DNA of 64,000 bases from Alphaproteobacteria bacterium (GTDB lineage Bacteria > Pseudomonadota > Alphaproteobacteria > Rs-D84): assembly GCA_017463185.1 (NCBI GenBank), contig JAFTPS010000003.1, positions 27,113 through 91,112 of the forward strand, given 5' to 3'. This document shows, in pieces, positions 1,612-40,069 of this stretch (position 1 is its first letter; the number at the start of each line of letters is the position of its first letter). The translations under genes were made by a program, and so were the position numbers. The notes under the pieces were generated by a model. That model saw only the letters and a program-made list of their open reading frames with translations, was not told where the DNA came from and ran no database searches.

Positions 1612-1760
1612 TCTTAAACCTCCTTTTCATTTTTTTGAATGAAAAAACCGTCGCAGAATTTAGACGGTTGGAGGTTCAGAACAATGATAAGATTGTATGG
1701 TGTATTCAGTATATTCCACCATCCTCCAACCATTTGTGGCTGGAAGTTATTTTTATTGCG
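1612..1760 (-). promoter_or_regulatory. conserved structured 5' leader (copy L1) with intrinsic-terminator hairpin upstream of Cys-rich secreted protein gene
   Basis: Sense (minus) strand: helix arm ggttggagg ... ~50 nt with conserved gaatatactgaata ... aacctccaacc, then hairpin ccgtctaaattctgcgacgg + tttttt 25 nt before RBS; same architecture at 27160-27365 and 33266-33470 with compensatory base changes. Confidence 0.45.
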
Positions 1761-2041
1761 AAGTGTTTATCGCAATACTTATCAGAGGTTCTGACACCCC
1801 GAAATAGCAATACGCCATTTCAAATAAAATGGTAGCATTATGGGGTATTAAAGTAAAGGCAAAAAAAACGCCGGGATTCAGATTGACAGCGGAATACAAC
1901 CCTAGTATAATATGCCTAATCCAAACCACCAATTGGATTAGGCATAAAAACACATTTGAAAACCTCAGGTTTCTGGGAGAAAACGACAAAATAAAAACCG
2001 CCGAATGCAAACGGTGGTTTAACTGACAAAAGGGGACGGCT

Positions 2042-4628: not shown

Positions 4629-4653
4629 AACTGGGCTTTCTTAGCCCAGTTTT
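4627..4653. terminator. bidirectional intrinsic terminator
   Basis: aaaactgggctttcttagcccagtttt between convergent genes. Confidence 0.6.
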
Positions 4654-7311: not shown

Positions 7312-7460
7312 AATCCATTGCCCTTTTTGTACTAAATCGGGTGGGGTTCAAACAACTGGTGACGTTTTTACATCTGTGTGCGGTTGCACCGCCCCACCCG
7401 CGTGAAATTTAAAACCCCAGGGAATAAAATAAAACGCCACCTGATGTATATCCAAGGTGG

Positions 7461-7548
7461 CCGGGAAGTTAAGACTATCATACAAGCGAAATGACACCAC
7501 CGACCTTTGGAACGGAGTGTTCCTGTGGTATAATCGGTGGCTTCCCGG
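7461..7548. ncRNA. candidate structured RNA element, copy 1 of tandem pair
   Basis: gCCGGGAAGtt...gaaatgac-CCACCGA-...cggagtg..cctgtNgtat..-TCGGTGG-CTTCCCGGc; two nested helices; same architecture 234 nt downstream with compensatory substitutions. Confidence 0.35.
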
Positions 7549-7694
7549 CAAATAAAAAGCCGAGTTATAAAGAAATCGCTTGTAAGAGAGCCGTCTTACT
7601 GGCCCCGAACCCTATCCCTAAGGCTCGGCACAGATATTACAGGATAAATTTCATATTTTCAAGACATAAAAATAGTCGCCAATTAAAAAGGCGA

Positions 7695-7777
7695 CCGGGA
7701 AGTTAAGAAAATCACACGCTGAAATGACCCCACGGGCTTTCGGAGTGGGCCCTGTTGTATGGCCCGTGGCTTCCCGG
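7695..7777. ncRNA. candidate structured RNA element, copy 2 of tandem pair
   Basis: aCCGGGAAGtt...gaaatgac-CCACGGGC-...cggagtg..cctgtNgtat-GCCCGTGG-CTTCCCGGt; inner helix differs from copy 1 but stays complementary (covariation); closing pair g-c in copy 1 becomes a-t. Confidence 0.35.
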
Positions 7778-7971
7778 TGAATCCCGAGAACACTGACGCG
7801 CAAGGTGGTGCGCGTCACAACGTGTGGACTTTCTTACGGTCCAAACCCACATTTTACAATGCGGTTCAATCTGATGTTACACAATTGATTGGCTAATCGC
7901 AAGTCATAAATTGAACTTGCGGGATGTAATCTGTTCGGATACACTGAGTCCATAAAAGGAGATAAGAGCCC

Positions 7972-8427
7972 ATGCATAAGATTATGACTTTTTCCATGGT
8001 GTTGGGGTTATGTGCCTGTAACAGTGTTTATATGAAACCAAATTCGTTGGATGCTGGACACGTGGTTTATGCGGACCGTGGCGGGTATTCTATGCGCCGC
8101 AGTATCAAGGAAACAATGGAAAATCGTGGCTATCGCGTTGTTGTTGGGCGTGCCACTGTAAACGAGAATGCAACGGACGAGAGTATTAGCGTTGATATAG
8201 ATAAAAATATTATACCTGTTGATGTAAAATATGTAATCAAGGTCAATGAACGCAATGAGAAGTTCCGGCCGATTTGGTGTGTGTTTAATGGTTTCTGGTG
8301 GTGGAATTTTAATGTTTCAATCGCAAATCAGGAAACTGGTGACGAAATTGTGTCTTGGCGTGGACGCGGATGCGCGAACAGTTCTGTGCGTTTGTTGAAC
8401 AGGATACTGGATAAAGTCGAAAAATAA
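7972..8427 (+). CDS. lipoprotein (lipobox LGLCAC)
   Basis: Signal peptide + Cys lipobox; RBS aaaggaga; followed by intrinsic terminator. Confidence 0.55.
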   Translation: MHKIMTFSMVLGLCACNSVYMKPNSLDAGHVVYADRGGYSMRRSIKETMENRGYRVVVGRATVNENATDESISVDIDKNIIPVDVKYVIKVNERNEKFRPIWCVFNGFWWWNFNVSIANQETGDEIVSWRGRGCANSSVRLLNRILDKVEK

Positions 8428-8674: not shown

Positions 8675-9089
8675 TTTGCCTTTCCTTTGTATTATAAAAA
8701 ATTAAATGCCGGGTTTTCTGGTGCCAGGTCCCCGGCCGACCCCGCAATCGCTAAAGCGAATGTGGTCAACAATTGCCAACCATATTCAAAGCCATATTAG
8801 GCAGCCATTGCAAGGCGAACATTGTCGTTCGCAGCGATTCTATCGCCATTCAGTTTTTAGTTAGTGTTTTACGACAACCATGTCGGATTCAATCTTTTGC
8901 CTTTATTTCGCCTGTCGAATCTATGTCAGCCCCATTTGCAAATATGACATCAATCATATCAGTAAATGGTGGAGCTGTGGGGTACCGCCCCCCAGTCCAA
9001 AACGATTATTCCACAAAGACTTCAGAATCATCACCGTTTACACGGCCGTATTATTATAGGCTTTTGGACTGGAAATTGCAAGTTTTTAA

Positions 9090-17026: not shown

Positions 17027-20000
17027 ATGGAAAAAAAGCGCAGTTTCCTGGGATTTTTGGCAAGTTTATTTTTGGTATTTTTTACCGCCAATGCGTTCGC
17101 GGCGGGCTATTCGTGTCCTACATATAAGTTGTACACATCGTGTAGCGAGAATTATTTCTTGGCTGATACCGATGTGTCTGACAGTGCTACTTCGGCGGGA
17201 AATGCATGTTCGGCCTGTCCTGGAAATTCTACAAACACTGTTTCAACTGCGACATCCTGTACCTGTAAAACGGGGTATAGTGTTGGCGGTGCAACCACAA
17301 CGACTGGTACGGCGTGTTCGGCCAATACATACACCGTTACTTATAACAGTAACAAGCCAAGTGGTGCTTCTGGCACAATTAGTGGCAGCACAGCGAACAG
17401 CACTCATACATATGGCACGGCCAAGGCATTGACAACAAACGGGTACAGTTTGACCGGGTGGACGTTTGCAGGCTGGAATACCAAGGCGGACGGTACAGGT
17501 ACATCTTATGCAAATGGCGCAAGTGTAACGAACCTGACCAGTACTTATAATGGAACGGTCACGCTGTATGCGAAATGGACTGTGAATACATTGACCATAA
17601 ACTATAACACCAGCAGTGCAACCAGTGGTACGCCATCTGTGTCACAACAGACATGTTCTTATGACGGAGCATGTACAGCGGCAACCCAGGGTACTATGGT
17701 TAAAACCAAGATGGTGTTCCTTGGTTGGACCAAGACATCTGGTGGAACAACCGTTGATTATGCGGCGGATGCATCTATCAAGAACATAATCAGCAGTGGT
17801 TCAATAACACTGTATGCAGTGTGGAAAACGCCGACATGTTCTGCGACCAAGGGTACTGCGACGTTAAAGAGTGTAACCAACAACACGCCAGTGTGTACTA
17901 TTACCTGTTCTACTGGGTACACTCAGGGCGGTGGCACGAATGCAACTGGGACGTTTGAAGTAAACGGTTCTGCCGGTGCAACCAGTGCAAGTGGCACATG
18001 TAAAGCGATTACATTTACAGTTGCATACACCAAAGACCCAAGTTCTGCAACGGGTACGGTTCCAAGTAATCAGACATGTACGTATGATGGCACATGTACT
18101 GCGGCGACGAATCCATTCTCTCATACGGGCTATATGTTTAACAAGTGGTCTTGTACCGCCAGCAGTGGCAGTTGCGCCGCCAGCACATATGCATCGGGTG
18201 ATAGTCTGAAAAATGCAACATCTGTTGCAGGTGCGACGATTACTCTGAAATCTACTTGGGATGCGAACACCATTACCCTGAACTGGGCAAATGGCGGACA
18301 TGGTACAGCGCCGACCAGTCCCGCATCGTGTAAGTATGACAGCACATTCACCATGCCGGCCGCGATGACCGCAACGGGTTATACATTTAATAAGTGGTCT
18401 GTGAATGGCAAAACGTTCAATGCGGGTACAACCGGTGTTGCGTGTACCAGTGCCAATCTGGGGGTAAGCAGTGGAGCCGTCACAATTACAGGTACCTGGA
18501 CCGCAAACAACTATTCCATTAGCCTGGACAATGCAAGCGCGACAAATAATGGGACAGCGACCATTTACACCACATATAAAACAAATGTGTATTTGGACGA
18601 CGCGCGCAGCAAGGCTATGACAGCATCCGCGAATGCTATCACAGAACCGACGCGCGCGTACACGGTCACATATGATGGCAATGGTGGTTCGGTGTCCGCA
18701 ACCAGTGCGACGGCAACATATACATTCAATGGTTATTACAATACGTCCAGCAATGGCACACAATACATTAACTCAAACGGGAATATCACATCCGATGGTT
18801 TGAACGCAGCTAAGGATGTGGATGATAATACAACAACCTGGTACGCACAATGGACCAGTAAATCTGTGACATTGCCAACACCGACCAGAACGGGCTATAC
18901 ATTTAAAGGCTGGGCAGAATCCTCAACCGCGACCGGTGGAGATACGGGTTCATATACCCCGACCAAGAATGTCACATTATATGCAATCTGGTCGCAGAAT
19001 ACCTATGCTGTCGCCTATTCCTGTGGTGATGGAGCTGGGACCGCCCCCAGTTCCACGACCGCGACATATGACAACTCATTTACACCGGCGGCTAACACAT
19101 GCACACGCAGTGGATATAACTTTGCCGGATGGACGGTAAGTGGCACAAGTGATACCAAGACCGCAGGTTCGGCATTTACTTGGACATATACTGAGGGCAA
19201 AACATTTACCGCCAAATGGACAGCCGAGGGCGAGGCGGAAATCAACTATGTCACAAATGGTGGCACAATCAATGGTTCGTACATGGCGGCGTGTAATGTT
19301 GAAACAGCAACATTTAGTTTGCCGACAGATGTCACAAAACCGGGTTATACATTTAATGGATGGTACACCGCATCCACTGGTGGGACCAAGGTGACAAGTG
19401 TTGTAAAGGGCACATGCACATCCGCGCTGACATACTATGCACAATGGACCGCATGCGACAGCACAACCGCGGGTGCTTGTAATTGTACCAGCAGTCAATA
19501 TCCAGACAATGGGACATGTACAAATTGTTCGCACAGCTGTGCCAGCGTCACTGGATATACACTGGGTACATATAATGTATGTGAGGCGGAAACGGATTTA
19601 TGGTGTTATCGCAATTGTACAACCACTGATATTCCAAATTCTACCGGTGTGTCTGGGATTGTTACTAAGGGCGGAAAAATTTTATGTGCAGCAACGACGT
19701 GTGCAGATGATTTCTATATATCAGGCAGTGGCTGTCAGTCATGTCCAGAAAATGCGACATGCGGGGGCGAAGCCGAATGGTCATGTGATGAGGGATATAA
19801 AAAGACCGCCAATGGCCTGGGGTGTGAACCAAATACATACACCGTCACATTGAATGCGAATGGTGGTACGGGTGGGACTGCGTCCGTCACGGCAACTTAT
19901 AACAGCCTGTTGCAAACGGCGACTATGCCAGAGCGCGACAACTATAACTTCCTGGGGTACTATGATACGGATGCAACCACGGGTGGCAATCAGTATTATG

Positions 20001-23000
20001 ACGAGAGTGGTAAGCCGGTAAAGGCATGGACCACGGCGGCAAATGGCACATTGTATGCGCGTTGGGAATTGGGTGTATTTCCATGCACCGCGGGCAAAGC
20101 AGCCGACGGAACAACATGTACGCCGGGATATTACTGTCCGGGTGGAGATGTGACCGCGGGCAATGAATCCAGCGAAACCGCAGGATGTGAAATCAAATGT
20201 CCAAGTGCATCGGGCAAAACGATTAGTTCTGTTTCCGGCGCGACACTGAAAACCCAGTGTACAGCCGCGGGGGATGTAGATATTACAAATGAATCCACGA
20301 CAGTTGTGTCGGGGCGTGGTACCGAAACATGTAGTTGGAACGAAAGTACGGACTCATATTCACTCTCTTGCAATATCGTGCCGACATACTGCCAGGGTGG
20401 ATATTACAGACCGGCTGCGAACTCGCCATTCTGTAATGAGGTTGGCTATGGCTATTATCGTGGCGATAGCGAAGCCGTGACAACACGCAATGCGTGTTCG
20501 GCCCTGTCGGGTGCGTCGGGCGCGACAACATCAACCACGACATCCAGTGCGGCAACAGCATGTTTTAATATGTGTTTGCAGACGGTGACCACAGATGGCA
20601 ACGGGGTATTAAATCCGGTCAATGAAAACGAATTTTATAATGCAACGACCAAGACTATTGCGGCCTGCTCTTATACACTAAGTTGTAATACTGGGTATCG
20701 GGCGGCAAGTGATACAACATGCGAACCAGATGTTTTTGCGATTACACTGGACCACAATGGTGGCACGGGCAGCGTGAATACAATATATCTGAAATATAAC
20801 ACCGGATGGTATTCGGACAGCAATGCCACCAGCAAAATTACCAAGGTCACTTTGCCGACCCTGGCGGGCCAGACATGTTCGGGATATTTAAGTGGCAGCA
20901 CCGTTGTGATTGGTTCTACGGGTAATTTGACAACGAATTACACATTATTCTCGGACGACGCCACAATTAAAGCATCGTATGCCGATAATCCGTCAATCTC
21001 ATGTGCGGCGGGAACATATTATGCCGGTACGGGGACATCATGTACCAACTGTCCGGCGGGCAGTTATTGCGCGGGTGTTGAGGCAATTCAAGACACCGGT
21101 ACGGCCAGTGGTATTGCGACCTGTGAGGCGTTGAATGGCACATATACGGCCGCTGTGGATAAAAATGGTAATAAATTGACGGTGATGATTAGTTCGGCGA
21201 CAAAATCCGATGCGGCGGCGGACTGTTATGCGACAAATGTTGCCTATGCACCCGACCAATACACAGCGGGCAGTCAGACTTGTCAGTATGACGCAGGTAC
21301 TAAATCATATACCGCAAATTGCAGTGCGAAAACCGTTATTACCTGTGCGGGTGGTTATGCCCTGGCCAGCGGAACCGCCACAGTTTGCACGATTGTTGAT
21401 TTGGGATATTACAGCCCGGATAAAGAAACCTCTGCAACACGGTGTCCAGAAAATTCGGATACGGGTACACGCGGCACAACCCAGGAAAAGGGGCGCACCA
21501 GTGCCGAGGCCTGTATAATGGATGACCTGTGGTATGAAAATGATACCAGCGGTCAAAGACGGCAGTGTTTTTATTCGGCCGAGTCGGGCAAATATGACCG
21601 AAACTGTCCACAATCAACGATTGTGACCTGTATCGCGGGGTATTATTACGATGGTGTACAAACTGACAATTGCGTGCCGGTTGGGAATGGGTATTGGAGT
21701 CCGGCTCAATCCGAATGCTCGGGCGAATCCGCGCAGCCAACCGTTGCAGGTTGCTCAACCGAACGCAATTATTGTGGCACAGGTATAGATACCAAGGATG
21801 CCGACGGTAATATCACAAATACCGCGTCCAGCATCACATATTGCGTGGGCCTGTGCGAGGCGGGATATTACTGCGTCCCCGGCGAAGATGCACAAAAATG
21901 CCCCGCCGACTATCCAGACTCTCAGCCCGGCGCAACCAGTATTGATGAGTGTTATGTGGAAGCATCATGTTCGTGTATAGAAGATTCTTCTGTGTGTCCA
22001 GATAATGCTAATAGATGCACATATCGGACTTCTACTGTGACGGGGGTTTATTATTATGCAGACCCAGCCACTTGTGTCGCTAATCCAGAAGACCCAGAAA
22101 GCTCATATTGTCAGATTAACTCTTCATACTGCGCCGATGATTTTTATAGTAGATATTATACTATAACGGGTGAAGAGGTGTCTCGCAGTGAAACGAGTCG
22201 TTTTAGTTCAACCTGTGATAGTTGTTCAACGGTTTCTGCAGATTATCCATATGCATATTCTTATGAAAGCTATAAAGGTGTTAATGGGTGTTGGGCTTAC
22301 TGCGACTTTTACTGTGACGACCCAATTTGTCCACTAGACTCTGAAGGATATTGCGAATATGATAAATATATCATTTCCAAAGAAGGTAAGCTGTATTATC
22401 CGGGCGATGGTGAATGTACCGCGGCTTCCTCTTTGCAAGCAACTTGTTCCGTTACGAAAATTGGCTGTAATACAGGATATGAGTTTAATCCGAATGCCGC
22501 TGATTCAGATAGTATGTGCGAGTTGATTGTTGCTAAGGTCACGTTGAAAGTAAATGGTGGGGATGGGACAGATTCTGTGGTGTACCAGAAGTATGCAACA
22601 GGATGGTATTCAGATGAAGACGCGACAAGTTCTGTTTCCAGGCTTACAACACCAACGCGCACAAACTATTCGTTCTTGGGTTATTCCGCGGACGAAGAAG
22701 GAACAAATATTGTCCTGGCGGCGGATGGCATTTTGCCAGAGCCAGAATTGTTCACAGCCGATACGACATTGTATGCACAGTGGTCGCAGAATCTGGTAAC
22801 CTGTGAAGCGGGCAAGTACTATGATAGTGGCGTGCTGACCGAGTGTGTTGCACCATATTACTGCCCAGGTGAAGGAAATGTGGTTGTTGGTGGTACAGGC
22901 TGCCGTGAAACATGTCCAAATGGCGGGACCATTGATGAAGATGGCGCATCCAGCATCAACAGATGCCACAAGATTATCACGGATTCGTCAAAGAATTTCC

Positions 23001-26000
23001 CGAATGGTACGGCGCAATGGGATTGCTATTACACCAGCGGGACCGGCGATAATGCCCTGTACAGTACAAGTTGCACGGTTGTACCAAGAACCTGTAATCC
23101 TGGGTACTATCACGAGGGTAATAATGCTGTCGGATGTACAGTTGTGGAAGATAAATATTACAGTCCCGCCAATAAGTTGGACAAATATCTGTGTGAAGGT
23201 GGTGACGGGTCGGTACTGCCACGTGATAGCCAGGAAAATTGCTATGTATCCTGTGATTTGACCGCGGCGGATGTGCCACACAGCAAAACCGTGACACCCG
23301 ACAGCGAACAGGCCATGTATTCTGGTAGTGCATATGAAACATGTACATATACATTGACCTGTGACCCAGGATATACTGCGGTACCGGGTGCAAATCCACA
23401 ATGTAAGGCAAATGAATATACAATTACATTGGATAAAAACAAGGGCACGGGCAATATTGCGGACAGTGTACAATGCACATTTGACAGTGGGGCATGCGCC
23501 CTGCCCGCGACAAGTTCGCTGGTACGACCGGGATACAATGTAATTGCCAAGTGGTGTAAAAAGGACGACGGCACCGGTGATTGCTATGGCGCGGGGAACA
23601 CGATTACGGACAACATATCGGCAACGGGTACGGATGTGACGCTGTATGCGGTATGGCAACCGGCAGTATTCAAAATCATACTGAGTGCATCGGATGCAAC
23701 GGCAAATGGCGCACAGGGACCAGTGTATCTGAAATATGCAACGGGTTGGTATTCCGATGAATCGGCAAACACCCCGATAACCAGTTTGGGTACAAACCTG
23801 CCCCAAAAGACGGGATATGAATTTGCGGGCTATAAACTGGGCGACATTAGTATCATTGACGCAAATGGCGCATTGCAGACGAATGAAAATGCATTGAGCG
23901 CAACAACAGTGGATGCAACCGCAACGGCGGTGTGGTCGGCGGGCTTTACATCCTGTGCGGCGGGGACATACTATTCCGGAAATGGCAGTGTATGTTTGAC
24001 CTGTACGGAAAATAACTGGTGCCCAGGTGGCGACAAATTCGCAACCGATTCCGGCACGCCGGATGGACTGAATGCGTGTCCGAATGGCGGTTTGTCGGCG
24101 GGTGGCGAAAGCGCAACCAATGTTGGCGTGTGTTATAAGGAACAGTTGCCTTATACATCGGCCAGCACACACGCGACGGGAACCCAGACATGCTATTATG
24201 GTACAGATGATTATAATGCAAACTGTAAAGACATTGTGGTCACGGCATGTGGGGCGGGATACTATTATGTGTCAGGAACCGATTGCTCAGAGGTTGACGT
24301 AGACCATTATAGTGGCGCGGACGATATGAAACGCTATGCGTGTCCAAACGGTGGTGGCACGGGCAGTCTGACAACGGCCAGCGTGATAACTGAATGCTTT
24401 AAGACGGTTGACTTTACATCCGCGTCGGGCAATGGTACTGGAACCCAGGTATGTACATATACCAGTGGCGAAGGTGCGGATGCCAGATACGCAACCGAAT
24501 GTCGCGAACAGTATGTCAGTCATTGTAAGGGCGGTTATTACAAGACAACCGATGATGCGATTGACTGCGACAAGGTGGGCAAGAATAATTACAGCCCAGA
24601 GGGATCTGTAGCACGTGAGAAATGTCCAGATGGCGGGTTGACCGAATCCGAAACAGCGAATGCACCGACATTCTGTTATAAAACGGATACGCCGTATTCC
24701 AGCGAACACGGTCGGGGTATTCAGTTGTGTTATTACAACGCGGAAACAACCGTGTATGATACCGGGTGCAGCACAATCATAATGCATGAATGCGACGCAG
24801 GGTATTATTGGAAAAATGGCGACAAAGACTGTGAACCAGTTGACTATGGATTCTATGGACCAGTTGCAGATGTAAATAACAGCAACCGTCCAACCACACG
24901 CGATATGTGTCCGGATAACGGACTGACCAAAACAGACACCAGTGCGGATATATCAGAATGCTATCGCACGGATGTGGAATGCACGGTCAACAATGGTGTG
25001 GGTGAAGCGACCTGTAATTATGACGCGGATGCGGGCGCATATTCTGCGGAATGCGGCACATGTGCGGTGACGGGTTGTGGTGAAGGCTATTATTCAACCG
25101 ACGGCACAAACTGTGTTGAATGCCCAGCGGGCAGTATCTGCGACGGTAGCGATGACGATGGCGATGGAATCCCAGATGCCAAGACTTGTGCAAGCCTGAC
25201 CGGTGGTACGCATACCAAGTCTGACAGCGGTATAAGCGATGTAAACTATTGCTATACAGACTGTCCGATTGTTGAGAATGCAAACAGTGTGACGGGACGC
25301 GATTACTATGGCGCGACGGACACTTGCAAGATCAATTCCTGCCGGCCGGGGTATAAGTTGCAGAATTTCCAGTGTGTGGCGTGTGCCGAGGGCGAAATTT
25401 GCGATGGCTCGGTCAAAGACGAAGACGGCGACGGGAACCAGGACGAAGAACCTAAGACCTGTGCCGAATTGACCGGCGGCACGCACACAATGTCAGACGC
25501 AAAATCGGATAGCATAAACGACTGTTATCATATGTGCGAGGCATATGAACTGGATGGTGGCGAGGCCGTGCCAGTCAGTGAACGCGCCCAGTATCCAGAT
25601 GACTGCGAATTTGAAGGCATATCCGATACCGGAAATCCGTGCGATATTGTTGATGGACGCTGCGTTGAAACATCGTGCAATTCAAATTTTGAATTGATAA
25701 ACGGGTCGTGCAAGCCATGTAATCGTGAACACGCAATTACATATAAGCCAACGGGGAACTGTGTTGTGGAATCTTGCGCGACGGGGTATCATCCGAATGG
25801 CCAGGCCTGTGAAGATGATGTTGTGTCGTGCAGTGCACCGAATGCAATATCCGCGACGCGGGTATGGAATACCAAAAAGAACGCGTTTGGCGAATGTATT
25901 ATCACCGAATGCGACGACGGTTATCATTTGGCGGCAAATGCATGCCAGGCCGACGAACAACCGTGCGAGGTTGAACATGGTACCGGTATGCGCGAATGGA

Positions 26001-26326
26001 ACCATAAAACAAATACCTGGGGGGCGTGCATTGCCACCAGTTGCGAACCGGGATATACCAGCGACCGTTCTTTGACCAATGAACTGTCCAAACAGTGCGG
26101 ACGCTGCAACAATATGTACAGCGCGTTGGGAGAACTGGCCGCCAGCAGTTATGTAAGCGAATGTGAAATCGCATCGTGTATGTATCAGGGTGAAAAGTAC
26201 ACATTGGAAAACAATGAATGTATTCTGATATGTGATACGCGCAGCGATGAAACTGGCAGCCAAAAATGGAACGCATCGCGTGGCAAGTGTGAACGAACCT
26301 GTGCGGATGGGTATATTGAGTGGTAA
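17027..26326 (+). CDS. giant secreted surface/adhesin-like protein (3099 aa): signal peptide, Listeria-Bacteroides (Flg_new) repeats, ephrin-receptor/GCC2-like Cys modules, EGF-like Cys-rich C-terminus
   Basis: Signal peptide MEKKRSFLGFLASLFLVFFTANAFA; >10 repeats of ..GYTFxGWNTxxDGTGTxYxxGxxV..LYAxW; recurring CxAGxYYxGxGxxCxxCPxGxYCxG modules; DGDG Ca-binding-like stretches; RBS agagaggaag; terminator follows. Confidence 0.8.
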   Translation: MEKKRSFLGFLASLFLVFFTANAFAAGYSCPTYKLYTSCSENYFLADTDVSDSATSAGNACSACPGNSTNTVSTATSCTCKTGYSVGGATTTTGTACSANTYTVTYNSNKPSGASGTISGSTANSTHTYGTAKALTTNGYSLTGWTFAGWNTKADGTGTSYANGASVTNLTSTYNGTVTLYAKWTVNTLTINYNTSSATSGTPSVSQQTCSYDGACTAATQGTMVKTKMVFLGWTKTSGGTTVDYAADASIKNIISSGSITLYAVWKTPTCSATKGTATLKSVTNNTPVCTITCSTGYTQGGGTNATGTFEVNGSAGATSASGTCKAITFTVAYTKDPSSATGTVPSNQTCTYDGTCTAATNPFSHTGYMFNKWSCTASSGSCAASTYASGDSLKNATSVAGATITLKSTWDANTITLNWANGGHGTAPTSPASCKYDSTFTMPAAMTATGYTFNKWSVNGKTFNAGTTGVACTSANLGVSSGAVTITGTWTANNYSISLDNASATNNGTATIYTTYKTNVYLDDARSKAMTASANAITEPTRAYTVTYDGNGGSVSATSATATYTFNGYYNTSSNGTQYINSNGNITSDGLNAAKDVDDNTTTWYAQWTSKSVTLPTPTRTGYTFKGWAESSTATGGDTGSYTPTKNVTLYAIWSQNTYAVAYSCGDGAGTAPSSTTATYDNSFTPAANTCTRSGYNFAGWTVSGTSDTKTAGSAFTWTYTEGKTFTAKWTAEGEAEINYVTNGGTINGSYMAACNVETATFSLPTDVTKPGYTFNGWYTASTGGTKVTSVVKGTCTSALTYYAQWTACDSTTAGACNCTSSQYPDNGTCTNCSHSCASVTGYTLGTYNVCEAETDLWCYRNCTTTDIPNSTGVSGIVTKGGKILCAATTCADDFYISGSGCQSCPENATCGGEAEWSCDEGYKKTANGLGCEPNTYTVTLNANGGTGGTASVTATYNSLLQTATMPERDNYNFLGYYDTDATTGGNQYYDESGKPVKAWTTAANGTLYARWELGVFPCTAGKAADGTTCTPGYYCPGGDVTAGNESSETAGCEIKCPSASGKTISSVSGATLKTQCTAAGDVDITNESTTVVSGRGTETCSWNESTDSYSLSCNIVPTYCQGGYYRPAANSPFCNEVGYGYYRGDSEAVTTRNACSALSGASGATTSTTTSSAATACFNMCLQTVTTDGNGVLNPVNENEFYNATTKTIAACSYTLSCNTGYRAASDTTCEPDVFAITLDHNGGTGSVNTIYLKYNTGWYSDSNATSKITKVTLPTLAGQTCSGYLSGSTVVIGSTGNLTTNYTLFSDDATIKASYADNPSISCAAGTYYAGTGTSCTNCPAGSYCAGVEAIQDTGTASGIATCEALNGTYTAAVDKNGNKLTVMISSATKSDAAADCYATNVAYAPDQYTAGSQTCQYDAGTKSYTANCSAKTVITCAGGYALASGTATVCTIVDLGYYSPDKETSATRCPENSDTGTRGTTQEKGRTSAEACIMDDLWYENDTSGQRRQCFYSAESGKYDRNCPQSTIVTCIAGYYYDGVQTDNCVPVGNGYWSPAQSECSGESAQPTVAGCSTERNYCGTGIDTKDADGNITNTASSITYCVGLCEAGYYCVPGEDAQKCPADYPDSQPGATSIDECYVEASCSCIEDSSVCPDNANRCTYRTSTVTGVYYYADPATCVANPEDPESSYCQINSSYCADDFYSRYYTITGEEVSRSETSRFSSTCDSCSTVSADYPYAYSYESYKGVNGCWAYCDFYCDDPICPLDSEGYCEYDKYIISKEGKLYYPGDGECTAASSLQATCSVTKIGCNTGYEFNPNAADSDSMCELIVAKVTLKVNGGDGTDSVVYQKYATGWYSDEDATSSVSRLTTPTRTNYSFLGYSADEEGTNIVLAADGILPEPELFTADTTLYAQWSQNLVTCEAGKYYDSGVLTECVAPYYCPGEGNVVVGGTGCRETCPNGGTIDEDGASSINRCHKIITDSSKNFPNGTAQWDCYYTSGTGDNALYSTSCTVVPRTCNPGYYHEGNNAVGCTVVEDKYYSPANKLDKYLCEGGDGSVLPRDSQENCYVSCDLTAADVPHSKTVTPDSEQAMYSGSAYETCTYTLTCDPGYTAVPGANPQCKANEYTITLDKNKGTGNIADSVQCTFDSGACALPATSSLVRPGYNVIAKWCKKDDGTGDCYGAGNTITDNISATGTDVTLYAVWQPAVFKIILSASDATANGAQGPVYLKYATGWYSDESANTPITSLGTNLPQKTGYEFAGYKLGDISIIDANGALQTNENALSATTVDATATAVWSAGFTSCAAGTYYSGNGSVCLTCTENNWCPGGDKFATDSGTPDGLNACPNGGLSAGGESATNVGVCYKEQLPYTSASTHATGTQTCYYGTDDYNANCKDIVVTACGAGYYYVSGTDCSEVDVDHYSGADDMKRYACPNGGGTGSLTTASVITECFKTVDFTSASGNGTGTQVCTYTSGEGADARYATECREQYVSHCKGGYYKTTDDAIDCDKVGKNNYSPEGSVAREKCPDGGLTESETANAPTFCYKTDTPYSSEHGRGIQLCYYNAETTVYDTGCSTIIMHECDAGYYWKNGDKDCEPVDYGFYGPVADVNNSNRPTTRDMCPDNGLTKTDTSADISECYRTDVECTVNNGVGEATCNYDADAGAYSAECGTCAVTGCGEGYYSTDGTNCVECPAGSICDGSDDDGDGIPDAKTCASLTGGTHTKSDSGISDVNYCYTDCPIVENANSVTGRDYYGATDTCKINSCRPGYKLQNFQCVACAEGEICDGSVKDEDGDGNQDEEPKTCAELTGGTHTMSDAKSDSINDCYHMCEAYELDGGEAVPVSERAQYPDDCEFEGISDTGNPCDIVDGRCVETSCNSNFELINGSCKPCNREHAITYKPTGNCVVESCATGYHPNGQACEDDVVSCSAPNAISATRVWNTKKNAFGECIITECDDGYHLAANACQADEQPCEVEHGTGMREWNHKTNTWGACIATSCEPGYTSDRSLTNELSKQCGRCNNMYSALGELAASSYVSECEIASCMYQGEKYTLENNECILICDTRSDETGSQKWNASRGKCERTCADGYIEW

Positions 26327-26583: not shown

Positions 26584-27159
26584 TTAATTGCTATAATAGC
26601 AATTACTGGTGAATGTGTATGTGCCGGTAGTGTCGGACATAGATGAATTTGCCGGTATATAGCACGATGTGATGGCGGTACTGCCCGCGGCACTGGTGCC
26701 ATAAACGCCACCAGATGATGGGCAACGGGTACAGGTTGTGCCGTCACCATAATATCCCGCGCGACACTGATATTCACAGGCCGGAATTATCAGTTCATCG
26801 TTGCAACGTATTTGTTGCGTGTTTCCATAATCGGTCCAGGTGTTTTCTGGGCACAGATCTGGACAGGTTGGTGTTATTGGTTCTATTGGCGACAATGTTC
26901 TTGTACAGGTGCCGATTGTATAACTTTCGGTGCTGGATATAGTAATGGTTTCCGTGCTGCGGGTATAACCACTGGCACAGGTGTTGCAGTCCGTGTATGT
27001 GGCGGTGCCACAGTTGATAACGCGGTTAACATCACTGCATTCAGTTGTAGAGCCGCCGGTTGATTCAATAAAACACATGATTATGGTATCTAGGGCCCAT
27101 GCATTATGCGACAGACCAATCGCCCCCAAGACGATTGGGATAAAGATTTTTTGATTCAT
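26584..27159 (-). CDS. secreted cysteine-rich protein
   Basis: 191 aa, signal peptide MNQKIFIPIVLGAIGLSHNAWA, Cys/Thr-rich; RBS aggaga; preceded by conserved leader L2. Confidence 0.5.
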   Translation of the reverse strand: MNQKIFIPIVLGAIGLSHNAWALDTIIMCFIESTGGSTTECSDVNRVINCGTATYTDCNTCASGYTRSTETITISSTESYTIGTCTRTLSPIEPITPTCPDLCPENTWTDYGNTQQIRCNDELIIPACEYQCRAGYYGDGTTCTRCPSSGGVYGTSAAGSTAITSCYIPANSSMSDTTGTYTFTSNCYYSN

Positions 27160-27365
27160 TGTTTTCTATCTCCTGTTTTTTTATTTTTCAAATGAAAAAC
27201 CGCTGAAAAAAATTTTCAGGCGGTCAGGAGGTTAGTAACAATCTAACGAATTGCGTGCTTATTCAATATATTCGCAACCCTCCTGACCAGGGGTCAGGAG
27301 ATATTTCGTCGTAATAATAAAAAACAGCGCGTAAAGCGCGCCATAAGCATATATTCCGACGCGTT
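27160..27365 (-). promoter_or_regulatory. conserved structured 5' leader (copy L2) with terminator hairpin
   Basis: Sense strand: ctcctgacc-cct-ggtcaggagg / gttgcgaatatattgaataag... / aacctcctgacc / ccgcctgaaaatttttttcagcgg+ttttt, 35 nt before start codon; near-identical copy L3 and divergent covarying copy L1. Confidence 0.5.
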
Positions 27366-27477
27366 AGCAGAGGTTACTACGCCTCATCAACGGAATCCCC
27401 GTTGACGATATTAGTATATATAAAATCATAACGAGAAACAATAGATTTTTTGTATGCAAATGTGTAATATATAAAAT

Positions 27478-33265: not shown

Positions 33266-33470
33266 ATCCCTTATGCCCCTGCCCCCGATTTTGTGCAGCA
33301 AAAGACCGCCGAAAAATTCAGACGGTCAGGAGGTTGGAAACAATTGTTGGAATTGTGTCGCTTATTCAGTATATTCGCAACCCTCCTGACCCCGGGTTCA
33401 GGAGATTTTTACGTCGCAATAATAAAAAATACGCACGGCGTGCGTAATAAGTATATATTCCGACGCCAAC
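33266..33470 (-). promoter_or_regulatory. conserved structured 5' leader (copy L3) with terminator hairpin
   Basis: Sense: ctcctgaacccggggtcaggagg / gttgcgaatatactgaataag... / aacctcctgacc / gaccgtctgaatttttcggcggtc+ttttgc. Confidence 0.5.
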
Positions 33471-33572
33471 AAAGGGTTTCCACACCCCAATACGACAATA
33501 CGTCATATCAAAGTGTATTCTAGCGTATTTTATATTTGTTGGCAAGAGAAAACGCCCATTTGGGCGTTTATA

Positions 33573-39220: not shown

Positions 39221-39754
39221 TTATATTGTATGCTCGGATTTGGTCTTTGCCATTTGTACGGTTGGCGAAACATCCGATGGCGCGGCCATTTGTGCAACCT
39301 TAGACTGGGCCATTTCCCATTTGCGACGTGGCTCGCCAATAATTTTGTCATAAAATGCATCAACGATAAAATCAAATGCCGGGATGTCTGTTGGTAATTT
39401 TATCGGGGCGATATTGCGCGGGTCGCTGCCACGAATAGCTTTGTCAAACTGACCCTCGGTCAATTGCGCACCATATTCAAAAATCTCACATAATGGGCCG
39501 GCAACATCTGGTCCAACTTCCATACTTTCAAATCCCATTATATTATAGATACGGGCACCCGCCCCTTTTCCATTGTTATAGAAAACTATTTTAGATAATC
39601 CAGACTGTACACGGTAATATGCGCCCTCAGGTTCGTCTGCAACGCGCCGGTCATTTTTATCAATTCGCTCGCCAATTTTTACGATTGCGCGTTTTGATGT
39701 TTCCTGTTTGCGCAACAGCTTCTGTAATTCGTATATTTTATCTATATTTGCCAT
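39221..39754 (-). CDS. hypothetical protein
   Basis: 177-aa ORF with RBS aaagggaaa; no recognisable domain. Confidence 0.35.
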   Translation of the reverse strand: MANIDKIYELQKLLRKQETSKRAIVKIGERIDKNDRRVADEPEGAYYRVQSGLSKIVFYNNGKGAGARIYNIMGFESMEVGPDVAGPLCEIFEYGAQLTEGQFDKAIRGSDPRNIAPIKLPTDIPAFDFIVDAFYDKIIGEPRRKWEMAQSKVAQMAAPSDVSPTVQMAKTKSEHTI

Positions 39755-40069
39755 AGCATATTTCCCTTTTTATACATAATAAAACCGCCATACGGAATCT
39801 GGCGGTCGGGGAGTTGCTAAATCAGTGTATTAGTGATTCTGTCGCTTTCGGGTTGTCCCTGTTGTATAGCAAACAGCTCCCCGACTTATACAAGTCAGGG
39901 ATAAATCACGATACAAAACCATCGGAATGACATCAGATAACGATGCCATTAACAATTTTGCACCGAATACACTGGGCCTAGCACAGCCCCGAACCCATAT
40001 CCCTATGGATTCAATTCATAGTTTATCACTAAATTTCAGAAATGTAAATTGAATATATTGTTTGATGTT

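What the first reader, a model, noticed from the sequence alone, without database searches (positions are those of the whole stretch)
27160..27365. Conserved terminator-containing RNA leader (three copies, with covariation) in front of every small Cys-rich secreted protein operon: candidate novel riboswitch/attenuator
Three 5' UTRs on the minus strand (1612-1760, 27160-27365, 33266-33470) share one architecture. There is a helix arm GGTCAGGAGG, a ~50-nt internal region with invariant GAATATAYTGAATA, a complementary arm AACCTCCTGACC, then a GC hairpin plus U-tract 25-45 nt before the RBS. In copy L1 the helix arms are GGTTGGAGG / CCTCCAACC, a compensatory double change (CA/TG to TG/CA) that keeps pairing. 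The terminator stems also differ but stay complementary (ccgcctg/cagcgg vs ccgtc/gacgg vs gaccgtc/ggcggtc). In L2/L3 a third copy of the arm (CTCCTGACC) upstream can pair alternatively with GGTCAGGAG, giving a mutually exclusive two-state fold next to a terminator. All three copies precede genes for small signal-peptide-bearing Cys/Thr-rich proteins, which suggests a dedicated regulon for a secreted protein family. I cannot match the element to any riboswitch class I know.
Basis: seen in the sequence. Interest (0 to 1): 0.85.

Follow-up and report, generated by a model that had tools for sequence, protein, structure and literature searches.

The report
Conserved terminator-switch RNA leader family
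The three repeats are real copies of a ~230-nt structured mRNA leader that can fold either into a transcription terminator or into a competing three-way junction. It is widespread in tiny-genome gut Alphaproteobacteria, and its core is a shrunken relative of the "sRNA-Xcc1" RNA found in front of phage anti-repressor genes.

Summary
All three minus-strand leaders (L1 about 1612-1826, L2 27160-27411, L3 33266-33514) share one fold.

**Fold, 5' to 3':**
- 5' hairpin H0
- hairpin H1
- hairpin H2
- arm A, then arm A'
- stem P2, then stem P3
- arm A''
- an intrinsic terminator, then the ribosome-binding site (SD) and start codon

**Two states.** A' pairs either with A (P0, which leaves the terminator free to form) or with A'' (P1). 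P1 closes a three-way junction and takes the terminator's first 3-4 nt.

**Support.** I found more than 250 homologous leaders in gut Alphaproteobacteria MAGs (order Rs-D84, Ca. Enterousia), gut metagenomes and phage contigs. Every helix covaries, including both alternative pairings (0 of 500 shuffles reach the observed values).

**New feature.** A pseudoknot joins the H1 loop to junction J3/1. It is 7/7 complementary in 107 of 111 leaders, in 32 sequence versions.

**Relation to known families.** No Rfam family reaches threshold. The best match everywhere is sRNA-Xcc1 (RF02221) at 31-39 bits against a cut-off of 53. The whole leader is also present upstream of the anti-repressor gene ant in an E. 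coli Stx2 phage.

**Verdict.** This is a cis-acting attenuator and a new variant of a known RNA kind. The signal it senses is unknown, and a riboswitch is possible but unproven.

The parts
27413..27441 (-). Predicted sigma-70-type promoter of leader L2 (TTGTTT-17 nt-TATACT). The predicted start site is about 27407.
   Evidence: Read from the sequence. The -35 is weak, and the consensus scan did not list it. The L3 equivalent, TTGCCA-17-TAGAAT at 33545-33517, was the best promoter-like site in that scan. Homologous leaders carry TTGACA/TATAAT-like boxes at the same distance.
27386..27406 (-). H0: 5'-terminal 8-bp hairpin with pentaloop GGAUU. The family loop consensus is GNNUU, and the basal G.U pair is conserved.
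   Evidence: Model R3 and alignment A9: helix 98.9% paired, 7 of 8 pairs with changes on both sides, basal G.U in 68 of 88. Pentaloops listed.
27370..27385 (-). H1: 4-bp hairpin GAGG-CGUAGUAA-CCUC. Nt 27379-27373 (UAGUAAC: six loop bases plus the first base of the 3' stem strand) are the 5' strand of pseudoknot PK.
   Evidence: H1 is 92.2% paired and all 4 pairs covary. PK complementarity is 7/7 in 107 of 111 leaders, in 32 versions, and in 52 of 57 in an independently ascertained set.
27307..27361 (-). H2: closing helix CGUCG/CGACG. It encloses an extra terminator-like hairpin T1 (27344-27324) followed by U6.
   Evidence: H2 closing helix is 95.3% paired and all 5 pairs covary. T1 was listed by the terminator scan at 27344-27324, and at 33446-33430 in L3. 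T1 is present in 34 of 54 CAGGAGG-class leaders and 0 of 52 TTGGAGG-class leaders.
27292..27300 (-). Arm A (CUCCUGACC). It pairs with A' to form P0, the anti-antiterminator.
   Evidence: P0 helix is 91.5% paired, with 8 of 9 pairs changed on both sides. Arm classes co-vary, and a permutation test gives 8.15 against 7.47 +/- 0.07.
27279..27288 (-). Arm A' (GGUCAGGAGG). It is the shared strand of P0 (with A) and P1 (with A'').
   Evidence: P1 is 99.5% paired. P1 is 9/9 in 123 of 128 leaders.
27252..27278 (-). P2 hairpin with conserved loop GAAUAUAUUGAAUAA (27273-27259).
   Evidence: P2 is 97.7% paired and all 5 pairs covary. The loop consensus is GAAUA-N2-6-RAAUA when leaders are ascertained by the arms only. 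It aligns to the P2 internal loop of sRNA-Xcc1.
27238..27254 (-). P3 hairpin (GCAAUU...GAUUGU).
   Evidence: P3 is 91.5% paired and all 6 pairs covary.
27233..27239 (-). End of P3 plus junction J3/1 (GUUACUA). This is the 3' strand of pseudoknot PK and pairs with 27379-27373.
   Evidence: The four central positions vary and always compensate.
27222..27231 (-). Arm A'' (CCUCCUGACC). It is the 3' strand of P1, and its last 4 nt (GACC) are also the start of the terminator stem. Its CUCCUG can also pair with the gene's SD.
   Evidence: the same columns pair in both states. The MFE of the full leader pairs CUCCUG with CAGGAG. SD covariation is modest.
27195..27225 (-). Intrinsic terminator T2: stem GACCGCCUGAAAA/UUUUCAGCGGU with one bulge, then U5.
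   Evidence: Fold. Family terminator helix is 92.8% paired, with 5 of 7 pairs changed on both sides.
27157..27175 (-). SD CAGGAG (27175-27170) and ATG (27159-27157) of the 191-aa secreted Cys-rich protein gene (26584-27159).
   Evidence: There is no Pfam family for this protein. It has 120 homologues in gut Alphaproteobacteria MAGs.
1612..1826 (-). Leader L1 (TTGGAGG arm class, no T1). The 5' module is 1738-1826, the switch plus terminator 1643-1747, and PK joins 1794-1788 with 1682-1676. It precedes the 259-aa secreted protein gene 832-1611.
   Evidence: R1 71.2 bits, R2 82.4 bits, R3 49.4 bits. Sequence.
33266..33545 (-). Leader L3 with promoter 33545-33517. The 5' module is 33397-33514, T1 33446-33430, the switch plus terminator 33301-33406, and PK joins 33482-33476 with 33341-33335. 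It precedes the 141-aa (ATG 33265) and 241-aa secreted protein genes.
   Evidence: R1 73.2 bits, R2 72.8 bits, R3 45.1 bits. Promoter and T1. Sequence.
39796..39886 (-). Class-2 leader core. It has the same three-arm switch, terminator, H1 and PK, but keeps a full sRNA-Xcc1-type P2 (UAUACAACAGGG...CCCGAAAG). It precedes the 177-aa gene 39221-39754.
   Evidence: Rfam sRNA-Xcc1 38.8 bits, E = 7e-6. R1 17.3 bits. Sequence.
7458..7778 (-). Two class-2 leader cores in tandem (7686-7778 and 7458-7551). Each is followed by a terminator. They lie upstream of an RgpF/glycosyltransferase operon (6379-7311, 4652-6379).
   Evidence: Rfam sRNA-Xcc1 30.5 bits. R1 21.7 and 13.8 bits. Sequence. Pfam hits.

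Best explanation
Each copy is the 5' leader of an mRNA and works in cis as a transcription attenuator. It probably gates translation as well.

**Order of events (shown from sequence and covariation).** Transcription starts just upstream of hairpin H0. The RNA then forms H0, H1 and H2. Arm A pairs at once with A' to give P0.

**OFF state.** If P0 persists, the downstream arm A'' stays free. Its 3' end nucleates the intrinsic terminator. Its CCUCC part can also mask the gene's Shine-Dalgarno sequence.

**ON state.** If A'' instead captures A', helix P1 forms. P1 closes a three-way junction with P2 and P3. The terminator then loses the first 3-4 bp of its stem and the SD is free.

**Extra tie.** A 5-7-bp pseudoknot joins the loop of the 5' hairpin H1 to the junction strand J3/1. 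It ties the 5' module to the junction.

**Ancestry.** The junction is a reduced version of the sRNA-Xcc1 fold. The whole leader is a module of phage origin: the same leader stands in front of phage anti-repressor genes. In Rs-D84 gut Alphaproteobacteria it has multiplied in front of genes for secreted or surface proteins and small HTH regulators.

**Shown versus inferred.** Shown: the helices, their mutual exclusivity, near-equal stabilities, position and orientation. Inferred: that termination actually occurs, which state is induced, and what tips the balance. My best guess is a universal or leader-derived factor rather than a dedicated metabolite.
For: **Structure.** Every helix is supported by covariation, including both alternatives that use A' and A''. 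The pseudoknot is supported.

**Overlap.** The terminator shares AACC/GACC with P1.

**Energetics.** Constrained MFEs of the ON and OFF states differ by a median of 1.9 kcal/mol. They lie within 3 kcal/mol in 71 of 128 leaders.

**Strand.** The element is strand-specific. G.U pairs occur only on this strand, and reverse-strand CM scores are at most 24 bits against 50-85 bits forward.

**Position.** It always lies between a promoter-like site and an SD/start codon 40-70 nt downstream.

**SD masking.** The MFE of the full L2 leader pairs A'' with the SD. There is modest SD covariation: CA before GGAG in 14 of 31 leaders against 2 of 25.

**Relatives.** Relatives accumulate as short RNAs of about 88-100 nt in Xanthomonas (PMC2996969). 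That fits termination or processing just after P1. A bona fide sRNA-Xcc1 copy and the Stx2-phage copy sit about 40 nt upstream of BRO and Ant genes.
Against: - There is no transcript data for these organisms. Termination and read-through are inferred.
- The L2 and L3 terminators are imperfect, and the simple terminator scan did not list them.
- CAGGAGG-class leaders carry a second, upstream terminator-like hairpin (T1). It has no evident competing structure, so structural competition at T2 cannot be the whole story.
- The arm sequences fall into a few conserved classes rather than drifting freely. This could mean they also act in trans.
- The sensed signal is unidentified.
Confidence: 0.78

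Rival explanations
1. It is a self-targeting antisense leader of the phage P1/P7 c4 or P4 CI kind. The H1 loop is an antisense seed. Transcripts ended at T1 (H0-H1-T1, about 70-90 nt), or the cis leader itself, pair with J3/1 of read-through transcripts of the same locus. That pairing decides whether the junction or the terminator forms. The hypervariable PK sequence would then be a specificity ('immunity') code.
For: - H1 loop and J3/1 are perfectly complementary in 107 of 111 leaders, with 32 different sequences. All six leaders in the window have different codes.
- A conserved terminator T1 directly follows the H1/H2 region in 34 of 54 CAGGAGG-class leaders. By eye, the phage-contig and Stx2-phage leaders also carry one.
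- Relatives precede phage anti-repressor genes, the classical targets of c4-type RNAs. This last point rests on established knowledge of P1/P7 c4 and P4 CI.
- In one Xylella prophage region, sRNA-Xcc1 lies next to C4 and IsrK RNAs (PMC12189769).
Against: - TTGGAGG-class leaders lack T1 (0 of 52), so a separate small RNA is not general.
- The same complementarity is expected for a purely intramolecular pseudoknot.
- There is no Rfam C4 or IsrK match on the leaders.
Confidence: 0.22
2. It is a small-molecule or ion riboswitch acting as an ON switch. H1 plus the three-way junction, joined by PK, form a two-part aptamer. Ligand binding stabilises P1 and prevents terminator formation.
For: - The fold has many helices and a pseudoknot, and covaries throughout.
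- A few unpaired positions are conserved: GAAUA/RAAUA in P2, Y-G at the start of the H1 loop, and the terminal A of J3/1.
- The aptamer-like part overlaps an expression platform.
- There are many copies per genome, as with second-messenger riboswitches. This comparison rests on general knowledge.
- It occurs in phages of distant hosts, which argues for a universal ligand or partner.
Against: - The regulated genes point to no metabolite: secreted Cys-rich proteins, HTH regulators, anti-repressors, a glycosyltransferase operon.
- PK and P1 are long Watson-Crick helices that should form without a ligand.
- T1 is unexplained by this model.
Confidence: 0.18
3. It is a target of processive antitermination. 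Either the RNA itself (like the phage HK022 put RNA) or a bound factor (a NusG paralogue, or an N/Q-like protein) makes RNA polymerase resistant to T1 and T2. The alternative pairings only tune this effect.
For: - Many leaders carry two terminators in series, and T1 has no competitor.
- Conserved hairpins H0 (GNNUU loop, basal G.U) and H1 lie upstream of both terminators.
- The regulon consists of surface proteins and a polysaccharide operon. That is typical of RfaH/UpxY-type control, on general knowledge.
- The module has a phage origin.
Against: - No factor has been identified.
- H0 is absent from the phage versions.
- Strong selection for both P0 and P1 pairings is not needed in a pure processive-antitermination model.
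Confidence: 0.15
4. It is an independent trans-acting small RNA gene, as sRNA-Xcc1 is annotated, that merely lies upstream of protein genes. Its exposed CCUCC anti-SD motif would target other mRNAs.
For: - sRNA-Xcc1 was cloned as an 88-nt RNA of about 100 nt on Northern blots (PMC2996969).
- The OFF-state fold leaves AACCUCC single-stranded in front of a terminator with a U tail, which is a typical sRNA layout.
Against: - It is always co-oriented with, and 40-70 nt upstream of, a start codon and shares that gene's only recognisable promoter.
- P1 and terminator overlap, and the two states are near-isoenergetic. A plain sRNA gene would not need either property.
- The trans-targets of sRNA-Xcc1 were only predicted (PMC2996969).
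Confidence: 0.08
5. It is a repeated DNA element (MITE or REP-like), a DNA operator, or a leader-peptide (trp-type) attenuator.
For: - It is multi-copy.
- The loop contains the palindrome TATTGAATA.
- The four-segment topology is that of trp-type attenuators.
Against: - The covariation includes G.U pairs valid on one strand only. Orientation and distance to genes are fixed. Stems vary while pairing is kept.
- There is no conserved leader ORF. Open frames ending in the P2 loop have a median of 16-25 codons and usually no ATG.
Confidence: 0.02

Closest known systems
sRNA-Xcc1 (Rfam RF02221)
   Same: - The architecture is the same: a 9-10-bp G-rich/C-rich P1 closing P2 and P3, a 6-nt J3/1, then ACC and a hairpin. 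The conserved P2 nucleotides AAUAY...GAAUA are shared (alignments).
- It is the best Rfam match for every copy tested.
- The class-1 model R1 finds a bona fide member at its exact coordinates, at 20.4 bits.
- Bona fide members also lie about 40 nt upstream of start codons: a BRO gene on a P. aeruginosa plasmid and the Ant gene in an Stx2 phage.
- The Stx2-phage copy has the same H1, PK, T1-like and P0-like elements.
   Different: - Scores of 31-39 bits lie below the gathering score of 53.
- In the three leaders of the finding, the distal P2 helix (CCC-GAAA-GGG) is deleted. The internal loop therefore becomes a 12-17-nt terminal loop.
- The Rfam model covers only the junction. It does not include the 5' module, PK, P0 or the terminator.
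- The family is described as a trans-acting sRNA of integron cassettes and phages. It is not described as a cis attenuator of secreted-protein genes in a free-standing chromosome.
Phage P1/P7 c4 and P4 CI immunity RNAs (Rfam C4, RF01695). Comparison from established knowledge.
   Same: - It is a leader RNA in front of anti-repressor-type genes.
- A hairpin-loop sequence is complementary to a site further down the same transcript.
- The complementary pair varies between elements with compensating changes.
- The outcome is premature termination or translational block.
   Different: - There is no sequence or CM similarity.
- Here the complementary site is the junction strand of a three-way junction next to an intrinsic terminator.
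- Processing by RNase P and action in trans are not shown.
Classical four-segment attenuators (trp, pyrBI, pheST leaders). Comparison from established knowledge.
   Same: The topology 1:2 / 2:3 / 3:4 corresponds to A:A' / A':A'' / A'':terminator 3' strand, followed by a U tract upstream of the ORF.
   Different: - There is no leader peptide.
- The antiterminator is not a simple hairpin. It is a conserved three-way junction tied by a pseudoknot to a 5' hairpin.
Pseudoknotted two-part riboswitch aptamers such as ZTP (pfl). Comparison from established knowledge.
   Same: Two structured sub-domains are separated by a linker of very variable length (here H2, 30-100 nt) and joined by a pseudoknot, with an overlapping terminator.
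   Different: - No ligand is known.
- The gene context is not metabolic.
- There is no Rfam similarity.

Membership tests
Rfam RF02221 sRNA-Xcc1 | Covariance-model score at or above the curated gathering score (53 bits) | tested here: not met
   L2 scores 31.8 bits. Class-2 copies score 30.5 and 38.8 bits. Phage-contig copies score 31-33 bits. There is no hit in gathering mode. A positive control on the P. aeruginosa plasmid scores 72.6 bits.
Rfam RF02221 sRNA-Xcc1 | Three-way junction: 9-bp P1, P2, P3, 6-nt J3/1 | tested here: met
   RNAalifold and CM alignments. Full-length alignment to model positions 1-87.
Rfam RF02221 sRNA-Xcc1 | P2 with internal loop AAUACAA/GGAAUA and a distal GNRA-capped helix | tested here: not met
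   Class-1 leaders L1-L3 keep GAAUA...RAAUA but lack the distal helix. Class-2 copies in the window keep it.
Rfam RF02221 sRNA-Xcc1 | Free-standing RNA of about 88 nt acting in trans | not testable with these tools
   Only sequence is available. The literature evidence for trans action is target prediction (PMC2996969).
Intrinsic-terminator attenuator (terminator / antiterminator / anti-antiterminator) | Hairpin plus U tract between promoter and ORF | tested here: met
   (terminator helix 92.8% paired, 5 of 7 pairs covary). The simple scan missed the bulged L2 and L3 stems.
Intrinsic-terminator attenuator (terminator / antiterminator / anti-antiterminator) | Antiterminator that shares nucleotides with the terminator, and an upstream competitor of the antiterminator | tested here: met
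   P1 and the terminator share AACC/GACC. P0 and P1 share A'. All three helices covary. The two states are near-isoenergetic.
Intrinsic-terminator attenuator (terminator / antiterminator / anti-antiterminator) | Leader peptide with regulatory codons (trp-type) | tested here: not met
   No conserved ORF or frame.
Riboswitch | Conserved structured aptamer with covariation, overlapping an expression platform | tested here: met
Riboswitch | Direct binding of a small ligand | not testable with these tools
   Needs in-line probing or ITC.
Riboswitch | Gene association that points to a ligand | tested here: not met
   Downstream genes are secreted Cys-rich proteins, HTH regulators, anti-repressors and a glycosyltransferase operon.
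c4/CI-type co-transcribed antisense RNA | Hairpin-loop sequence complementary to a downstream site of the same leader, varying with compensation | tested here: met
   H1 loop pairs with J3/1 at 7/7 in 107 of 111 leaders, in 32 versions, and in 52 of 57 in the independent set.
c4/CI-type co-transcribed antisense RNA | Match to Rfam C4 or IsrK models; RNase P processing; action in trans | tested here: not met
   No C4 or IsrK match. Processing and trans action cannot be tested here.
MITE / REP-type repeat | Terminal inverted repeats, insertion in either orientation, no strand-specific RNA constraints | tested here: not met
   Orientation and distance to the start codon are fixed. G.U-dependent, strand-specific covariation is present. 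Reverse-strand scores are at most 24 bits.
T-box leader | Stem I specifier loop and T-box antiterminator bulge; Rfam RF00230 match | tested here: not met
   No Rfam match at gathering or E-value thresholds.

The most novel reading that the evidence does not exclude
The H1 hairpin plus the three-way junction, joined by the hypervariable pseudoknot, could be a previously unrecognised sensor. It might be a new riboswitch class. It might instead be a self-contained RNA switch that acts on RNA polymerase or on its own leader-derived small RNA.

In that case it would control anti-repressor genes in many phages, including E. coli Stx phages. In Rs-D84 gut bacteria with genomes below 1 Mb, it would serve as the master regulatory leader for the secreted and surface proteome. 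The family annotated as the 'trans-acting sRNA' sRNA-Xcc1 would then really be the terminated core of this cis-regulatory leader.
Probability: 0.3. Interest if true: 0.85.

Novelty: new variant of a known kind. Interest (0 to 1): 0.68.

Why it matters
**A dominant control device in a minimal genome.**
- Rs-D84 / Ca. Enterousia bacteria have genomes below 1 Mb (PMC12306168).
- This 64-kb window alone holds three class-1 and three class-2 copies.
- They sit in front of genes for secreted Cys-rich proteins and a surface-polysaccharide operon. Elsewhere the same leader precedes small HTH regulators.
- The leader may therefore be the main control device for the cell surface of these uncultured gut organisms.

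**A new reading of sRNA-Xcc1.**
- The results place sRNA-Xcc1 inside a larger leader with H1, a pseudoknot, a three-arm switch and terminators.
- That leader is conserved from Alphaproteobacteria to E. coli Stx2 phages, where it precedes the anti-repressor gene. The literature calls sRNA-Xcc1 a trans-acting sRNA.
- Anti-repressors influence prophage induction, so the element may bear on Shiga-toxin phage biology.
- The E. coli phage copy also gives a tractable system for working out the mechanism.

Tried and rejected
1. **Leader-peptide attenuation.** Rejected. Open frames ending at the stop codons in the P2 loop have a median of 16-25 codons, no consistent ATG and no conserved frame.
2. **RNAalifold on a 128-sequence MAFFT alignment of the whole switch.** It found only the invariant GGAGG/CCUCC pairs. 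The two alternative pairings conflict and MAFFT shifts the arms by one column. I replaced it with narrower seeds and CM-based realignment.
3. **DUF3800-VI (18.7 bits).** It was outscored by sRNA-Xcc1 once the search stretch was shortened and did not recur on L1. I treat it as chance.
4. **Internal promoter hypothesis.** TTGAAT in the P2 loop could serve as a -35 and TATAGT/GATTGT in P3 as a -10. Rejected, because a transcript from there would start at A'' and run straight into the terminator. P2 and P3 also covary as RNA.
5. **H0 loop or upstream linker pairing with the P2 loop.** No consistent complementarity was found.
6. **H1 loop versus arm class.** There is no correlation.
7. **P0037 homologue locus L006.** The gene lies inside an operon and has no leader.
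8. **Literature.** Searches for a described cis role of this leader upstream of anti-repressor genes found nothing. Chen et al. 2011 (RNA Biol) is not held in the library.
9. **Model R3 on class 2.** The 5'-module model does not detect the class-2 leaders. Their H1 and PK were confirmed only by eye.
Full report
**1. The observation**

Read on the minus strand, the three regions are as described.
- L2 and L3 carry GGUCAGGAGG ... AACCUCCUGACC around the 14-mer GAAUAUAYUGAAUA.
- L1 carries GGUUGGAGG ... CCUCCAACC.
- All three are followed by a hairpin plus U tract, then an SD and start codon 25-45 nt further on.
- The 14-mer matches exactly only at these three places in the window.
- An upstream third arm is present in L2 (CUCCUGACC) and L3 (CUCCUGAAC). 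L1 has one too (CUUCCAGCC), pairing with two G.U wobbles.
- MFE folding returns two alternative states. L1 and L2 fold as A:A' hairpin plus terminator. L3 folds as the A':A'' three-way junction.
- Rfam at curated thresholds finds only tmRNA and tRNAs in the window.

**2. Source organism and homologues**

The downstream 191-aa protein occurs on MAG contigs named 'Alphaproteobacteria bacterium' and has 120 homologues, mostly from gut metagenomes. Homologous loci carry the same leader with other arm sequences.

- Nearly all are gut MAGs: Ca. Enterousia, 'Rickettsiales bacterium' from termite guts, and ruminant, human, rabbit and mouse guts.
- Ca. Enterousia belongs to order Rs-D84, whose genomes are mostly below 1 Mb (PMC12306168).
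- Several assemblies contribute 4-7 loci each even in this truncated list.

**3. Anatomy of the complete leader**

Aligning the upstream flanks shows a promoter-like site followed by these elements.
- H0: a variable 8-10-bp hairpin with pentaloop GNNUU and a conserved basal G.U pair.
- H1: a 4-bp stem with loop Y-G-U-N4-A.
- H2: closing helix CGUC/GACG.
- An A-rich linker.
- Arm A, arm A', P2, P3, junction J3/1, arm A''.
- The terminator, about 50 nt of spacer, then the SD and start codon.

Covariance models built from diverse seeds realigned about 90-120 copies each. The pair counts were:

| Structure | Paired | Shuffled | Pairs changed on both sides | Slide controls |
|---|---|---|---|---|
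| Three-way junction P1/P2/P3 | 96.6% | 79.1% | 18 of 20 | 30-52% |
| P0 plus terminator state | 92.4% | 80.8% | 21 of 25 overall (P0 8 of 9, terminator 5 of 7) | 34-60% |
| H0/H1/H2 | 96.2% | 70.1% | 16 of 17 | 39-61% |

In all three tests, 0 of 500 shuffles reached the observed values.

Both mutually exclusive pairings of A' (with A, or with A'') are therefore under selection. So are both pairings of the 3' end of A'' (with A', or with the terminator's 3' strand).

Constrained folding puts the two states within 3 kcal/mol of each other in 71 of 128 leaders. The median favours OFF by 1.9 kcal/mol. The complete L2 leader folds far better than shuffles, with z = -7.0.

**4.

The MFE of L2 paired the H1 loop with J3/1. 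Across the family:
- The 7-mer U-N4-A-C of H1 is perfectly complementary to the 7-mer G-U-N4-A at the end of P3 plus J3/1 in 107 of 111 leaders.
- There are 32 different sequence combinations.
- The observed mean is 6.95 pairs against 5.53 +/- 0.06 when partners are permuted.
- In an independent set ascertained only through the arm sequences, 52 of 57 are perfect.
- The four or five central pairs carry the covariation. They involve only loop and junction nucleotides, so the pairing is compatible with intact H1 and P3.

In the window the partners are 27379-27373 with 27239-27233 (L2), 1794-1788 with 1682-1676 (L1), and 33482-33476 with 33341-33335 (L3).

**5. Further details**

- *Second terminator.* CAGGAGG-class leaders, including L2 and L3, carry an additional terminator-like hairpin plus U6 (T1) inside H2. 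It occurs in 34 of 54 such leaders and in 0 of 52 TTGGAGG-class leaders.
- *SD masking.* A'' can also pair with the gene's SD, with modest covariation.
- *Leader peptide.* There is no conserved leader ORF.
- *Downstream genes.* Of 110, 63 are signal-peptide-like (39 with at least 4% Cys) and 24 are small non-secreted proteins, some of which match HTH families in Pfam. The rest are varied.

**6. Relation to known RNAs**

When short stretches are searched with permissive filters, the best Rfam family for the junction is always sRNA-Xcc1 (RF02221). The alignments cover the full length of the model.

| Copy | Bits |
|---|---|
| L2 | 31.8 |
| Phage-contig copies | 31-33 |
| Class-2 copies, 7686-7778 and 39796-39886 (a third, 7458-7551, gave no Rfam match) | 30.5 and 38.8 |
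| Gathering score | 53 |

- Class 2 keeps the canonical P2 (AUACAA ... CCC-GAAA-GGG ... GAA). It has the same three-arm switch, terminator, H1 and PK.
- Class 1 is thus a 'mini' form. The distal P2 helix is lost, and the two strands of the internal loop remain as a terminal loop.
- A bona fide member (72.6 bits) on a P. aeruginosa plasmid lies about 40 nt upstream of a BRO-family gene.
- BLAST finds relatives in 44 phage records.
- In Stx2 phage Stx2a_WGPS6, the element lies 41 nt upstream of anti-repressor Ant. The flanking sequence contains the whole leader: promoter, H1 (GAGGCGUCAGAACCUC), a T1-like hairpin plus U6, a P0-like arm, the junction with J3/1 complementary to H1, and a following hairpin.
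- IMG/VR contigs carry class-1-type copies upstream of genes that look BRO-N/Rha-like by eye.

In the literature, sRNA-Xcc1 is:
- an 88-nt RNA in Xanthomonas (PMC2996969);
- located upstream of symE in integron cassettes (bioRxiv 10.1101/2025.06.18.660453);
- located upstream of an ORF6N gene in APSE phage (bioRxiv 10.1101/2020.03.17.996009);
- present in seven copies in Xylella (PMC12189769).

It is called a trans-acting sRNA there. I found no description of the extended leader or of a cis role.

**7. Mechanism**

Shown:
- the helices;
- their mutual exclusivity;
- their balanced energies;
- the fixed position between promoter and start codon.

Inferred:
- P0 forms first and permits termination and SD masking.
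- P1, together with the junction and PK, prevents both.

The trigger is unknown. Three considerations shape my ranking.
- The module works in phages of distant hosts, so its partner should be universal (RNA polymerase, a ubiquitous ligand) or encoded by the leader itself.
- T1 has no competing structure and directly follows the H1-bearing 5' part. The PK sequence differs from leader to leader. Both recall c4/CI-type self-targeting immunity RNAs of anti-repressor operons.
- The gene set gives no hint of a metabolite.

I therefore commit to 'cis-acting terminator/antiterminator leader' at 0.78. Within that, I rank a leader-derived antisense mechanism, a riboswitch, and processive antitermination as open sub-hypotheses.

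**8. Novelty and verdict**

- This is a real feature, not a repeat artefact.
- It is a divergent variant of a known RNA kind (sRNA-Xcc1), missed by the Rfam threshold.
- It sits in a much larger conserved architecture that appears to be undescribed.
- It has expanded in front of the secreted-protein genes of minimal-genome gut Alphaproteobacteria.
- The riboswitch reading remains possible but unsupported.

Noticed in passing
window 7458-7551, 7686-7778, 39796-39886 (minus strand): A second class of leader. It has the same H1, pseudoknot, three-arm switch and terminator, but keeps a full sRNA-Xcc1-type P2. Arm sequences are GCCGGGAAG, ACCGGGAAG and GUCGGGGAG. Two of the three reach 30.5 and 38.8 bits against RF02221.
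   Followed up: partly
window 7311-7972 (minus strand): Two class-2 leaders lie in tandem. The first ends in its own terminator at about 7670-7690. A new promoter-like site and the second leader follow, upstream of an RgpF / TupA-like ATP-grasp / glycosyltransferase operon (6379-7311, 4652-6379).
   Followed up: partly
window 27344-27324 and 33446-33430 (minus strand): An extra terminator-like hairpin plus U6 (T1) is nested inside H2. It has no evident competing structure. It is present in 34 of 54 CAGGAGG-class leaders and in none of 52 TTGGAGG-class leaders. By eye, the phage-contig and Stx2-phage leaders also have one.
   Followed up: partly
L257 (NC_049945.1 19270-19560), E. coli Stx2-converting phage Stx2a_WGPS6: The complete leader lies 41 nt upstream of the anti-repressor gene ant in the nin region: promoter, H1, T1-like hairpin, P0-like arm, sRNA-Xcc1 junction with matching pseudoknot, and a following hairpin. 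BLAST found 44 phage records with relatives (Escherichia, Shigella, Mannheimia, Aggregatibacter, Haemophilus, Moraxella, Bordetella).
   Followed up: partly
L129-L132, L136 (IMG/VR contigs): Class-1-type junctions with other arms (GUCGGGAGG, AUCGGGAGG, GCCGGAGG) lie upstream of genes that look BRO-N/Rha-like by eye (not Pfam-tested) on predicted phage contigs of higher GC. These leaders lack H0.
   Followed up: partly
window 27406/27386 and family alignment A9, columns 6/52: The basal pair of H0 is a conserved G.U wobble (68 of 88). The commonest H0 loop is a pentaloop GNNUU. This looks like a recognition determinant rather than a mere 5' stabiliser.
   Followed up: no
window 17027-26326 (plus strand): A 3099-aa secreted protein has Flg_new (Listeria-Bacteroides repeat) units and Cys-rich repeats like those of the small proteins. 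It has no leader of this family. A tRNA and a terminator lie just upstream.
   Followed up: partly
window 8707-9085 (minus strand): A two-piece (permuted) alphaproteobacterial tmRNA gene. It scores 161.8 bits against RF01849 and 124.3 bits against RF04321.
   Followed up: no
window 27170-27231 and family: Arm A'' (CCUCCUG / CCUCCAA) is complementary to the downstream SD region (CAGGAG / UGGAGG) and encloses the terminator. The base before GGAG tends to match the arm class: CA in 14 of 31 leaders against 2 of 25. This suggests combined transcriptional and translational control.
   Followed up: partly
L012, L030, L055, L057, L068, L074, L092, L100, L104 and others: A subset of leaders precedes small proteins of about 60-90 aa. 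Of the four tested, two match HTH families in Pfam and two have no hit. Termite-gut MAGs also have 50-56-aa proteins that look coiled-coil. These could be regulators belonging to the same regulon.
   Followed up: partly
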